Part shown: positions 1,175 through 5,659 of the stretch, piece after piece
Numbering within the stretch: the first letter of the stretch is position 1
How the letters are laid out: each line of letters starts with the position of its first letter
Origin: Octopus vulgaris
Lineage: Eukaryota
DNA: 64,000 nt
Direction of reading: 5' to 3'
NCBI GenBank assembly: GCA_951406725.2
Contig: OX597819.1
Coordinates: 116,498,001 to 116,562,000, forward strand
The notes under the pieces: model-generated
Told to the model about the DNA's origin: nothing
The model's database searches: none
The model's input: the letters and a program-made list of their open reading frames with translations, nothing else
Made by a program: the position numbers and the translations under genes

Positions 1175-1376
1175 CTTTTACTCATTTACATGTTTCAGTC
1201 ATTTGACTGTGGTCATGATGGAGCACCACCGTTTTTTAGTCGAACAAATCTTTTCCCAGAACTTATTCTTTCTAAGCCTAGTACTTATTCTTTCAGTCTT
1301 TTGCCGAACCACTAAGTTACTGGGACGTAAACACACCAGCATCGGTTGTCAAGTGATGTTGGGGGAACAAACATAG

Positions 1377-1466
<90 letters not shown>

Positions 1467-1604
1467 CGGGCTTCTTTTTCAGTTTCCGTCCACCAAATCC
1501 ACTCAGAATGATTTGGTCGGCCCGAGGCTAAAGAAGAAGACACTTGCCCAAGGTGTCACACAGTGGGATTGAACATAAAACCATGTGGTTTGTAAGCAAG
1601 CTAC
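1175..1604 (-). mobile_element. SINE family A (tRNA-derived), body and tail; head interrupted by a 3-kb insertion
   Basis: Colinear with the intact copy at 4735-5143, with internal (CA)n(TA)n; missing head resumes at 4644. Confidence 0.9.
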
Positions 1605-2018
1605 TTTATTTCATTTTATTTGCCATAAAGGCAGTATACAGAGTAGTTGCGGGCTGGGCAAACACATTAATGAATGAAAATGAAAATGAAAATGAATAAA
1701 TGAGACACGAAACCCAACACCCGCCGATTGGACTTTTCCCGAAAACATATTTTCTTTTTATTTAAAAATCAATATGAGGTTTCAAACCTCTTACAGGTAG
1801 GAGAAACTAAAACCTATTACTTAAAATGTTTTTCAAAAAATAAACACACAATTGAGATTATAAACTACTACAAAAAACGCAATAAAATGAGGTTTCAAAC
1901 CATGTGGTTCGTAAGCAAGCCACTTTATTTCACCTCCTACTCATCGATATATCCATCAATATATCCATCATTATCTTCAATGCCGCATGAGTTCCTGTAT
2001 CCCGCCATTTCCCATGCC

Positions 2019-2685
2019 TCACTCATGAAGGACATCTGGGTCGTGTAATACCCACCCGTCTATATATGAAACTCCTCCCCAAATCCTTTCCCACAAGGGA
2101 AACCTTATGACCTCCACAGCTATGTGCGGAGGCCATTCGGGATCCCATGTGAAGGCCATATACACTGTCTCTTTATATGCTTCTACTTTTTTCCACCTCT
2201 CCGCCCTTGTAGAAAAAGATAATTCATCATCTTTAATGGTGATGGTCATTTCTTCCTCCGTGGGTGGCAAAACTTCGGGACATGCAGACGGCACATCATC
2301 TCCCACCTGCAATGACCCGTTCTTCTTTCTCTTTTTTATTTTCTTCCTACTTCGGGAGAGTGAAGCTCTTCCGCTTTGTCCCGAGTCTCTCCCCACCTCC
2401 CGAAGCCTTCGCGTCCTTCGGCGGGAAACTATTTTTGTCCGCTTTCTGCCTTTTTAAACCATACGGCTGAATGCTTGATACCGCGGGATATGTATTTCAC
2501 AGAGGACAAATAATCTTTCAGTTCATTTTCTATATTACTGGTGTTGGGAAGACGGTGATGGTATCAAGAACTTTAGAATAAGTTCTAAGCACCATTCTCC
2601 TCTCCTCCATATCTTTTAACCACTGCTTAGGCGGGTTCATTTCCCACTCCAAGACAGAGTTCTTTTTAATTTCTTTCTCTGCCAT
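2019..2685 (-). pseudogene. ORF1-like paralogue B (frameshifted, apparently internally deleted)
   Basis: ATG at 2685: MAEKEIKKNSVLEWEMNPPKQWLKDMEERRMVLRTYSKVLDTITVFP/ENELKDYLSSVKYISRGIKHSAVW aligns to the N-terminus of ORF A; track ORF 2019-2396 is the likely C-terminal part. Confidence 0.7.
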
Positions 2686-3090
2686 GTCCAAAAAAACAGT
2701 TCAAAAGTAGTTAAAAAAACAGTCCACCAAAAAATTAAAACCAAAAATAAATAGAAGCAAAACAAAATAAAAGAGAAAGAAAGGACACTGAAATTAAAAT
2801 AATGAAGAAGAATGAACCAAAATTTAGAAAGAAAGAAAAAAATGGAAGAAGGAAAAAATTAAAGGAAAACCTCACAAATTGAACAGGCGAAATCCTTTGT
2901 ATAGTACTCCAACAGGTAATCCAATAGCCGGGGTTCTTCTTGATAATACTCCAGTTAGGTACTCCCCACTGTCTCTAGCGAAATACGCCCACCAGAATAT
3001 ATGTTATTTGGCGAAAAAATTTTCAATTCACCGTTATATCAAAGGAACTTTCTATATAATTCTCTACAGCCCCTCCCCTGAGAAAGAAGA

Positions 3091-4082
3091 TCACATGTTC
3101 TCCAACATTTCCACTAGGAGGGGGCCTTCTCCCCCCCCCACCCTTCGGTGGCTCACGTTCAACCGAAAGCGTTTCGGAACATGCCGCCGGTGCACCAGTA
3201 ATCGCCGGCGATACCCCGTTTTGCTTCTTTCTTTTATATTTTTGTTTACGACCGGAGTGTGGCTTTCCTCCGTCATTTTCGGAAGTCCCTCCTTCCCTCT
3301 CGCCACCTCAGAATCCATTGCTGCCTACCTTTCTTTTTTTTTTTTTTTTTAGGGGTTCACCTCCTCCTTGACTTTCTCTATCTCTCCCTCCGTTATATAA
3401 TCAGGAGGCGCCGTTGGAGGAAAAACATCCTCCTCTATTAACTGCTCCAGTGCCCTTGCTTGGTTCTTGGGGCAGTTCTTCTTTATGTGGTCCGATTCCA
3501 GGTACAGGTGACACTTGGGTGGGGGTGGGGCGTCCCTCAAGTGTCACTGGATACCTATAACCTGCCATCTTTAGAAAATCTGGAAAAACCAGATCTTTGG
3601 CTGAGAGTCCATAGAGTCAAAATTGCTTTCGACCCGACCCAATCAGCCAGAGGAACCATTTTAACATTCAAGAGCCTGGCTCCGCTGTCTCCCAGACACC
3701 GGCGGATAGTGTCCTCCATCCAATCAGGCTCTATTTCGAGTGGCAGCCCACTCACCCAGGCACTTGTCAATTTCCTCCCTTGATATGTGGGGAGAAACAA
3801 AACATTTTCCCCTTCCAGGGGCTGGCTAGCGAAGATGCTAGCCTCCTTAGTGGTGTCTAATAGCAACCACACTATTGCAAATTTGACACCCCTTGCAATA
3901 GACTTGATAGTTGGCAGGTATTCTGTCAACTCTTTTCCTATTTCTACTTGAGGGAATACAGTGATGGTGTCGAGGGACTTGGAATATGTCCTGAACACCA
4001 CCAATCTCTCATTACGGTCCTTTATCCACTGCTTAGGGGGTAAAATTTATCACTCCAGTACAGTGGTTTTCTTTGTTGCCAT
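3091..4082 (-). pseudogene. ORF1/gag-like protein A with degenerate CCHC zinc knuckle
   Basis: ATG at 4082: MATKKTTVLE**ILPPKQWIKDRNERLVVFRTYSKSLDTITVFP...; knuckle CHLYLESDHIKKNC (CX2[C>Y]X4HX4C) at 3472-3513; stops and frameshifts. Confidence 0.7.
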
Positions 4083-4643
4083 GCTTGCAAAAACGACGAA
4101 GGAAAAGGAGTTCAACAGAAAGTTCAAATATTCCAAATAAAAGTTCAATAAAAAAAACAAAAAAAGTACAGAAAGACAGAGCAGTGAGAGAGAACGAAGG
4201 AAGACAATTCAATTCACAGCAACATAATTCCGTCACTCCGGTAATCCACAAGAATAAAGGTACTCTAGTTCACCTTCGCGGCACAAAAATTAATTCTTCC
4301 TGTCCTCGTACTCCTTACCTGTGGTAAATCCAATGGAACTTCCAGGACACGAACACAGTCACACAAATACAATTTTCACAACAAAACTTTTGCGGAGCGG
4401 ATACGCCTCCTCAATCACACAATTCTCACTGCAAAGTGAGTCTTTTCGCAGGACCACAGGCAGACAAATGTCTGGAGCAGAGTGGAAAATGTTGCTCAAC
4501 AAAAATTATTAAATGCAGGGCAACAAACTCCACTAATCCCACAAAAATATAAGAAACGCCTACCTGTAGTCGAGCTTCAAAACGTTCAATATTTCACGTC
4601 GAAAGACGTGACTTCCAAGTAACAAGAACTCTCCTGTAGTAAG

Positions 4644-4682
4644 GTAAGCAAGCTAATTACCACACAGCCACTCCTACATCTA
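4644..4682 (-). mobile_element. SINE family A 5' head (remainder of the 1175 copy)
   Basis: gtaagcaagcta.ttaccacacagccactcct matches the head of the copy at 4735-5143. Confidence 0.85.
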
Positions 4683-4734
4683 TTGTACTCTATTGTATAT
4701 TCATTATTATTTTTTTTATAATTTATATATTTTT

Positions 4735-5143
4735 TTCTCTTTTACTTGTTTCAGCCATTTTGACTGAGGCCATGCTGGAGCACCGTCTTTTAGTCGAGCA
4801 AATCGATCCCGGAACTTATTCTTTTGTAAGCCCAGTACTTATTCTATCGAACTCTTTTGCCGAACCGCTAAGTGACGGGGACGTAAACACACCAGCATCG
4901 GTTGTCAAGCAATGCTAGGGGGACAAACACAGACACACAAACATATACACTCACATACATATATATATATACATATATACGACAGGCTTCTTTCAGTTTC
5001 CGTCTACCAAATCCACTCACAAGGCTTTGGTCGGCCCGAGGCTTTAGCAGAAGACACTTGCCCAAGATGCCACGCGGTGGGACTGAACCCGGAACCATGT
5101 GGTTGGTTAGCAAGCTACTCACCACACAGCCACTCCTGCGCCT
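4735..5143 (-). mobile_element. SINE family A, full length
   Basis: A box TGGCTGTGTGGT, B box GGTTCAGTCCC, 'cttgggcaagtg' (CORE-like), internal microsatellite, GTAAAAGA tail, ~40-bp flanking direct repeat. Confidence 0.92.
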
Positions 5144-5659
5144 ACATATTGTATATTTATTATTATTTTTATAATTTATATATATTTATTTTATTATAAA
5201 TGCAAAAAAAACACCTCGGAGGAATCGACGTAAGCTTAAATAATAAACCACAATAGGTGACCGTGATATAGAAAGGGGTTGCTGTAGAGCTCATTTTTGC
5301 GATAATCTGATATAATTTTCTCATTCATGTGTTTTTACAACTTCTTTGTAATGTCCGTAATGCATCCAAGCTTTCCAATTGCTATTTTCACCGCCATGAT
5401 GACGTGTTGGTGGTAAATTTTGAAGTGAATCTCAGAATCAAGACTATTGAATATGTTGCAAGACGCAACGAAAATTTTAGGAGAATAAAAATAAGAAATA
5501 AGTGGAAATTTTCCAGTGCGTCTGTTAAATTATAAAGAACAAAAGAAAATATCTCACCCAGACACAACAGACTATGCTTCAACACACGAACTCACATAAA
5601 AAATCTTGCAAACCAAATCCAAAAACGAAATGATGGTTCTAGTTGTATCAGTATTTTTG

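What the first reader, a model, noticed from the sequence alone, without database searches (positions are those of the whole stretch)
1578..1932. Same SINE target junction occurs twice, suggesting sequence-specific insertion into a tRNA-derived head
Seen: AAACCATGTGGTT(T/C)GTAAGCAAGC(T/C)AC followed by TTTATTTCA at both 1578-1613 and 1897-1932, with different sequence after each. Two element 3' ends (minus-strand TGAAATAAA) therefore join the same nucleotide of SINE A, just after the A box. Known: several Tx1-clade LINEs target multicopy small-RNA genes or other repeats. Inference: a retroelement system that uses the abundant SINE A head (or its source tRNA) as landing pad, hit twice here or carrying a transduced earlier target.
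Basis: partly seen in the sequence, partly recalled or inferred. Interest (0 to 1): 0.7.

Follow-up and report, generated by a model that had tools for sequence, protein, structure and literature searches.

The report
Retrotransposons that land in SINE heads
In this animal genome, likely an octopus, long jumping genes and their shorter one-gene passengers sit at one exact base of a very common short repeat at hundreds of places, likely because their cutting enzyme reads that sequence, but the second junction seen in this window is a one-off 26-base patch, likely a repair scar, not a second landing.

Summary
The repeat is real. The outer junction (1604/1605) is the 3' end of a 3,039-bp minus-strand insertion in a SINE head, with a 13-bp target duplication (1592-1604, 4644-4656). 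49 of 54 other copies, picked by element body alone, join the same base. The genome holds 603 exact occupied junctions against 64,743 exact empty targets. Of 50 junctions examined, 26 lie behind an ORF1 match and 10 behind an endonuclease-RT ORF2. Full-length passengers are ORF1-only, about 2.1 kb; two ORF2 elements are full-length, 5.4 kb.

The inner junction (1897-1932) is not a second landing or a transduction. It occurs in 0 of 54 relatives and once genome-wide. 26 nt replace 14 nt between 5-bp microhomologies, likely a templated repair patch.

Full-length copies appear to bring their own 5' piece of target: 6 of 18 young copies differ between the two duplications, all one way. The Tx1 label is untested by phylogeny. 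Other windows of this scan already reported this system. I found no paper on SINE-head targeting; Repbase and Dfam were not searchable.

The parts
1175..1591 (-). 3' part of the host SINE (B-box-like motif, body, tail), downstream of the insertion
   Evidence: 76% alike over 434 nt to the intact copy at 4732-5119
1592..1604 (-). 3' copy of the 13-bp target-site duplication, GTAGCTTGCTTAC
   Evidence: sequence; the same 13-mer follows the 3' end in 49 of 54 relatives
1605..1896 (-). 3' UTR and true 3' end (TGAAATAAA) of the subfamily-A part of the insertion
   Evidence: 82-88% alike to 40 other matches, 997 first-look candidates; junction table
1897..1932 (-). Locus-unique patch: 26 nt (1902-1927) copied from an element/target junction replace 14 nt of family 3' UTR, between microhomologies GGTTT (1897-1901) and TGAAA (1928-1932)
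   Evidence: alignment; 0 of 54 relatives; flanking joints unique in the genome
1933..3036 (-). Subfamily-A part: 5' UTR lacking its first ~150 nt and a broken ORF1 (start near 2685, stop at 1937-1939) with a deletion of about 500 bp at 2456/2457
3037..4643 (-). Subfamily-B part: 5' end, 5' UTR and a broken ORF1 (start near 4083; decayed CCHC knuckle near 3470-3511), cut inside ORF1 and fused to subfamily A without evident microhomology
4644..4656 (-). 5' copy of the target-site duplication (one mismatch: TTAGCTTGCTTAC)
4657..4677 (-). 5' end of the host SINE head with the A-box-like motif
   Evidence: colinear with the genome's tRNA genes
4732..5137 (-). Neighbouring intact SINE of the same family with an empty target at 5106-5118 (control for the pre-insertion state)

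Best explanation
Window 1605-4643 is a decayed, chimeric copy of a 2.1-kb ORF1-only retroelement family that sits, with a 13-bp target duplication, at one fixed base of a tRNA-like SINE head, likely placed there by the endonuclease and reverse transcriptase of 5.4-kb L1/Tx1-type elements found at the same base; the inner junction at 1897-1932 is unique to this locus and is likely a templated repair patch. Shown: the fixed site, the duplication, the shared 3' end, the ORF2-bearing partners, purifying selection on the passenger ORF1, head-to-tail stacks, and the uniqueness of the patch. Inferred: ORF2p nicks the bottom strand just behind GGTAA and primes reverse transcription on RNAs that end in the shared tail; passengers supply their own ORF1p and borrow ORF2p; full-length RNAs begin inside the target, so the cDNA end anneals to the upstream target and closes the 5' joint. 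For the patch (about 70%): a break in the 3' UTR ending in TGAAA primed on the locus's own 3' junction about 300 bp away, copied 26 nt, and rejoined at GGTTT, as in polymerase-theta-type end joining or an RT template switch during integration.
For: Site: 49 of 54 distinct subfamily-A loci chosen by body similarity join the target (58 fetched, 4 duplicates removed); subfamily-B and ORF1-picked loci show the same. 603 exact occupied against 64,743 exact empty targets, reversed-pattern controls 0. Partners: of the first 50 of the 603 junctions, 10 have ORF2 and 26 ORF1 within 1.5 kb upstream, 14 neither; 49 share the tail motif. L225 (5,412 bp) and L245 (5,447 bp) are full length; Pfam finds APE endonuclease, RT, zf-RVT and zf-CCHC in L244/L245; best PDB match human L1 ORF2p, E 3e-48. 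Passenger and partner ORF1 are homologous, 29% over 196 aa, E 6e-24. dN/dS 0.11-0.33, median 0.18, over 28 pairs of 8 copies. Separate insertions: local variants appear in both duplications (L148, L043, L069, L074) and several SINE variants are hit. Donor-carried 5' target: in a subfamily with 99.1% median identity, 18 of 18 5' copies have A at position 11 while 6 of 18 3' copies have T; L154/L156/L158 and L225/L245 share odd 5' copies despite different 3' copies. Patch: exact 5-bp microhomologies on both sides, the same closest relative (L002) on both sides, and inner ACG against outer ACA fits CpG decay of one local template (inference).
Against: No biochemical test of the endonuclease. All ORF2 copies I read are frameshifted. 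5 of 54 loci failed the junction test: two keep only the first 4-5 target bases, two have the 3' end missing or interrupted, and L002 ends in non-target DNA. Passenger ORF1 is only 29% identical to the partner's, so this partner family need not be the parent or the sole helper. The SINE head is not called by ARAGORN or Rfam; its tRNA origin rests on an alignment about 4 SD above shuffles, with single shuffles reaching 51-52 against a score of 52. The two junction copies differ at 2 of 36 bases, so a template elsewhere in the genome is possible. L227 shows a roughly 97-bp local target duplication at a truncated copy, which gives the two-step rival a precedent.
Confidence: 0.82

Rival explanations
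1. The inner junction is the remnant of two successive insertions: a 292-nt 5'-truncated copy with a 27-bp duplication joined at GGTT(T), next to a longer copy that later lost its last 306 nt by a deletion between two TGAAA words.
For: Head-to-tail stacks separated by one duplication are common (L024, L057, L074, L143, L146 and others). One truncated copy has a long target duplication (L227). This locus carries two other unique rearrangements.
Against: It needs the two breakpoints to fall 14 nt apart in element coordinates by chance. L002 is among the closest relatives on both sides. No other copy is truncated at this joint.
Confidence: 0.2
2. The inner target copy is a family feature, a transduced earlier target carried in the element's RNA.
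For: Only the presence of the copy inside the element.
Against: 0 of 54 relatives carry it; both flanking joints occur once in the genome (the two 1-mismatch hits are unrelated DNA).
Confidence: 0.02
3. There is no targeting: one ancestral SINE with an insertion was amplified as a composite unit.
For: 5' target copies are partly donor-derived, so some SINE sequence does travel with the RNA.
Against: Many subfamilies with 63-95% ORF1 identity, 5.4-kb ORF2 elements and truncated copies of under 100 bp to 1.2 kb all end at the same base; 3' flanks vary with the local SINE variant; local variants are duplicated on both sides.
Confidence: 0.03
4. The site is chosen mainly by RNA-DNA pairing, not by the endonuclease: passenger tails hold a short complement of the target.
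For: Lead from note e1-8667107, tested: among 123 passenger-type tails the longest complement to the own target averages 6.0 nt against 4.0 for shuffled targets; tails reading AGCTT occur only at GAAGC targets (4 of 4; 0 of 76 at GTAGC targets).
Against: 7 of 11 scored insertions at GAAGC targets have the non-matching tail; the 7 ORF2-type tails classified show no complement (3.4 against 3.6) yet use the same base; copies are related, so counts are not independent events.
Confidence: 0.1

Closest known systems
Tx1-clade LINEs that target other transposons: Xenopus Tx1 in Tx1D; crocodilian Tx1-Mar in Mariner-N4_AMi with SINEU passengers; Tx1-9_AMi (Harbinger); Tx1-8_Crp and Tx1-4_AMi (LTR elements). 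PMC4494074, passages read
   Same: APE-type LINE with a fixed site in another transposon; non-autonomous passengers share the site; sequential tandem insertions sandwich one target duplication; passes that paper's more-than-20%-of-flanks criterion.
   Different: The target is the tRNA-like head of a SINE, between its two promoter-like boxes, with about 65,000 exact empty sites. The passengers are 2.1-kb ORF1-coding elements, not snRNA-headed SINEs. Tx1 membership was not tested by phylogeny.
Keno (U2 snRNA) and Kibi/Koshi (microsatellites), PMC4494074 passages; Dewa (tRNA arrays) and Mutsu (5S), recalled
   Same: Sequence-specific insertion into a multicopy small-RNA-like sequence.
   Different: The target 13-mer and the junction were not seen at the 30 real tRNA loci sampled; the landing pad is a selfish repeat.
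HAL1 (half-L1), ORF1-only non-autonomous L1 derivatives; PMC5753468 passages
   Same: Encodes ORF1 only, shares the 3' end with an ORF2-bearing partner, ORF1 kept under purifying selection.
   Different: Site-specific; ORF1 has a CCHC knuckle and is only 29% identical to the partner's; many diverged subfamilies.
R2 5'-junction formation with co-transcribed upstream target (recalled, no call)
   Same: Full-length copies appear to bring target sequence at their 5' end.
   Different: R2 has a restriction-like endonuclease and an HDV-like ribozyme (recalled); here the endonuclease is APE-type and Rfam found no ribozyme in five element loci.
Polymerase-theta templated insertions begun and ended with microhomology; PMC7454005 passages
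   Same: Short insertion (2-35 bp cited there; 26 nt here) copied from nearby or distant DNA, microhomology at both ends, small deletion.
   Different: Inferred from one fossil locus; an RT template switch would leave the same trace.

Membership tests
Non-LTR retrotransposon, L1 group (autonomous partner) | ORF2 with N-terminal APE endonuclease, then RT, then a C-terminal zinc-binding region | tested here: met
   PF03372, PF00078, PF13966 in L244; best PDB match human L1 ORF2p; the frame is broken in these copies
Non-LTR retrotransposon, L1 group (autonomous partner) | Separate upstream ORF1, target duplication, 5'-truncated copies with a fixed 3' end, no LTRs | tested here: met
   488-codon ORF1 in L245; full-length and truncated copies at the same 3' junction
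Tx1 clade | RT groups with named Tx1 families in a phylogeny | not testable with these tools
   No named Tx1 sequence came back from the two ORF2 homolog searches; no tree was built
Tx1 clade | Target-sequence preference (more than 20% of flanks of one type, criterion of PMC4494074) | tested here: met
   49 of 54 for passengers chosen by body. ORF2 copies were found through the junction, so their own rate was not measured without bias
Tx1 clade | ORF1 with RNA-binding domains and a CCHC knuckle (feature recalled) | tested here: met
   zf-CCHC over cut-off in L055 and L245, under cut-off in five other copies; ESM Atlas look-alikes are CCHC and ZCCHC3-type RNA-binding clusters at 0.88-0.93, a lead only
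HAL1-like ORF1-only element | Full-length copy with one ORF1 and no ORF2, sharing the 3' end with an autonomous partner | tested here: met
   About 2.0-2.35 kb between duplications; stop-free ORF1 frames of 416-473 codons in 19 of 20 stretches fetched; no ORF2 inside
HAL1 (mammalian) | Derived from mammalian L1 with an L1-type ORF1 | tested here: not met
   ORF1 is homologous to the local partner's CCHC-type ORF1; the only database relatives are two Octopus sinensis proteins. It works like HAL1 but is not HAL1
tRNA-derived SINE (target) | Head colinear with a tRNA gene, with A- and B-box positions | tested here: inconclusive
   Colinear over about 74 nt with tRNA-Lys and tRNA-Ala genes, about 4 SD over shuffles; not called by ARAGORN or Rfam
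Named octopus SINEs OK/OR1/OR2 (Ohshima and Okada 1994) | Sequence identity with the published families | not testable with these tools
   Paper seen only as a citation in PMC4758252; no SINE library on hand
TMEJ templated insertion (inner patch) | Templated insert with microhomology at start and end and a small deletion | tested here: met
   26 nt in, 14 nt out, 5-bp words on both sides
TMEJ templated insertion (inner patch) | Dependence on polymerase theta | not testable with these tools
   single fossil event

The most novel reading that the evidence does not exclude
An APE-type LINE lineage evolved specificity for the Pol III promoter head of a SINE rather than for a host gene, and supports a long-lived radiation of ORF1-only passengers whose RNAs start inside the target (guiding the 5' joint) and carry a target complement near the tail that can pair with read-through target sequence, so that protein and RNA together pick and close the site, and each hit splits the SINE's promoter.
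Probability: 0.3. Interest if true: 0.75.

Novelty: new variant of a known kind. Interest (0 to 1): 0.5.

Why it matters
Target-specific LINEs are known for rRNA and snRNA genes, microsatellites and DNA transposons. A SINE head as the exact landing site, with tens of thousands of natural sequence variants of the target, gives a ready data set for how an APE endonuclease reads DNA and how the 5' joint is closed, the least understood step of LINE integration. Each hit separates the two promoter-like boxes of a SINE, so one transposon may disable another. The ORF1-only passengers under purifying selection are an invertebrate parallel to HAL1. The doubled junction that started the finding is only a local scar.

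Tried and rejected
The repeat finder on the whole window was swamped by microsatellites. Pfam found nothing in the four broken window ORF pieces. Searching the genome with zf-RVT gave other L1/Tx1-type families: none of 30 loci ended at this target; the partner was found only through the junction pattern. Rfam found no ribozyme or other family at gathering score in five element loci. Expression: no RNA holder listed; the one guessed-RNA run laid covered 4 of 30 bins, nearly all SINE sequence; no conclusion drawn. Runs of three other coded organisms cover all 30 bins of the young passenger, but their junction-crossing pieces have under 31 letters on one side, so shared targeting across species is not shown. 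No RT tree was built, for lack of named references. Long 5' target duplications were checked in six loci: only L227 shares local variants on both sides; the other five look like separate SINE copies (read by eye). The search of earlier findings by sequence and by 'near' returned nothing. No structure or complex prediction was run.

Full report
Observation. The two 36-nt copies are at 1578-1613 and 1897-1932 and agree at 34 of 36 bases. The 27-nt core matches four places in the window at up to 3 mismatches, the other two being intact SINE heads at 5092 and 58821; 100 shuffles give none. Read on the minus strand, a SINE begins at 4677, breaks after GTAGCTTGCTTAC (4656-4644, one mismatch), and resumes with the same 13-mer at 1604-1592. 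The 3,039 bp between are one insertion with a 13-bp target duplication. The organism is likely an octopus: the only database relatives of the insert's protein are two Octopus sinensis proteins.

The target. The SINE head aligns colinearly over about 74 nt with tRNA genes of the same genome (score 52; shuffles 30 +/- 5, highest 51-52 of 200). The 3' junction falls just behind the D-loop-like GGTAA, between the A-box-like and B-box-like motifs. ARAGORN and Rfam do not call the head, so tRNA origin is likely, not proven. None of 30 real tRNA loci (six isotypes) had the junction within 1.5 kb.

Site specificity. I fetched 58 loci by similarity to the element body (29 non-self loci each, which scored 40 of about 1,000 candidates); 4 were duplicates. 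Of 54, 49 join the same base. Of the five others, two keep 4-5 target bases, two lack an intact 3' end and one ends in other DNA. Subfamily-B loci and ORF1-picked loci show the same junction. Exact 33-nt patterns give 603 occupied and 64,743 empty targets, about 0.9%, with reversed controls at 0; both are lower bounds. These are separate insertions: several SINE variants are hit, local variants appear in both duplications (L148, L043, L069, L074), and elements stack head to tail around one duplication.

The elements. Most full-length copies are about 2.0-2.35 kb with one ORF of about 420 codons, with a CCHC knuckle and a likely RNA-binding N-terminal part. The ORF1 search had 10,727 first-look candidates, which is not a copy number. 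Eight copies chosen for long open frames are 63-95% identical over the N-terminal 191-194 codons, with dN/dS 0.11-0.33 in 28 pairs, which are not independent. One subfamily is young, 99.1% median identity over 46 pairs. Among the first 50 of the 603 junctions, 26 have ORF1, 10 have ORF2 and 14 have neither within 1.5 kb upstream; 49 share the tail motif. L225 and L245 are full-length 5.4-kb elements at the same base; L244 and L245 show ORF1, APE endonuclease, RT and zf-RVT; human L1 ORF2p is the best solved relative. Their ORF2 frames are broken. Passenger and partner ORF1 share 29% over 196 aa. Thirty zf-RVT loci of other families did not end at this target. Tx1 membership fits this anatomy but could not be tested by a tree (searches returned no named Tx1).

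The 5' joint. In the young subfamily all 18 5' duplications read A at position 11, while 6 of the 18 3' duplications read T; none goes the other way. L154, L156 and L158 share one odd 5' copy, and L225 and L245 another, over different 3' copies. Several truncated copies keep only 6-10 bp of duplication, others the full 13. I infer that full-length RNA starts inside the target and that the last bases of the 5' copy come from the donor, as recalled for R2. A rival reading is a shorter true duplication plus a fixed, target-like element start; these data do not separate the two. Rfam found no ribozyme.

The inner junction. Relatives read TGAAA, 14 nt, GGTTT at this place; the window reads TGAAA, 26 nt, GGTTT, and the 36 nt together copy an element/target junction. 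It is in 0 of 54 relatives. The left joint has one exact genomic match (itself; two 1-mismatch hits are unrelated) and the right joint one match. L002 is among the closest relatives on both sides, so the element is likely continuous through the patch. A templated insertion begun and ended with microhomology is the described signature of polymerase theta (PMC7454005, passages); an RT template switch would look the same. I put this at about 70%, two insertions plus a deletion at about 20% (L227 shows that a long duplication can occur), and a family feature at about 2%. The locus has two more unique faults: a fusion of subfamily B to subfamily A at 3036/3037 without evident microhomology, absent from the 40 other matches, and a deletion of about 500 bp at 2457.

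Tail complement. After note e1-8667107 pointed to it, I tested a short target complement in the tail on 140 distinct 3' junctions: 123 passenger-type tails average 6.0 nt of complement against 4.0 for shuffled targets; the variant tail occurs only at the variant target (4 of 4), but 7 of 11 scored insertions at that target have the common tail, and 7 ORF2-type tails show none. It may help passengers; it does not explain the site alone.

Literature. PMC4494074 (passages) describes Tx1 families in piggyBac, Mariner, Harbinger and LTR elements, U2 genes and microsatellites, with passengers and tandem stacks. PMC5753468 (passages) describes HAL1. PMC13282606 (parts 1-2 of 3) and PMC8967140 (passages) list L1-Tx1 in octopus without a target in what I read. 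PMC4758252 (passages) only cites the 1994 octopus SINE paper. Seven searches returned no paper on a LINE that targets a SINE head; the other hits were seen as listings only. Repbase, Dfam, subscription journals and these papers' supplements were not seen and may hold it. Eight earlier notes of this scan describe the same system on other pieces of this genome; they are AI notes, not support.

Verdict. The targeting system is real, and a new variant of a known kind. The doubling that prompted the finding is a local scar. Interest 0.5.

Noticed in passing
window 4643-4734 and 5105-5187: The SINE head and its upstream AT-rich flank recur at 79% over 92 nt, which suggests an old local duplication or a SINE inserted next to a copy of its own flank.
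   Followed up: no
L128 ~2725-3233, L134, L137, L237: A roughly 480-bp element starting CGGAGGGAGG sits at the GAAGC target variant, often stacked behind an ORF1-only copy; a possible further short passenger.
   Followed up: no
L227 (G000:C1:202243800-202250300): Truncated ORF2-type tail with about 97 bp of downstream SINE duplicated at its 5' side, sharing local variants.
   Followed up: partly
L011 ~1347-1380: The 5' joint of a truncated copy is followed by several short imperfect repeats of the end of the duplication, which looks like repeated priming.
   Followed up: no
G000:C2:73046133-73062761; loci L164-L193: Other L1/Tx1-type families with open ORF2 frames of 1,125-1,148 codons; four zf-RVT hits lie in tandem 5.4-5.7 kb apart, which hints at another target-specific family.
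   Followed up: no
L139-L159, L199, L231: The young subfamily sits in the TAAC variant of the target in 12 of 18 copies, more than that variant's share (about a third by eye) among the 100 empty targets listed; age or preference not separated.
   Followed up: no
window 16718-63925 (families D16, D18, D19): A second abundant interspersed repeat of about 250-300 bp with a dozen copies in the window.
   Followed up: no
L106 and L107 (G000:C13:16912834-16917360): Two subfamily-B 5' ends with the same SINE head and flank lie 1,237 bp apart: a local tandem duplication.
   Followed up: no
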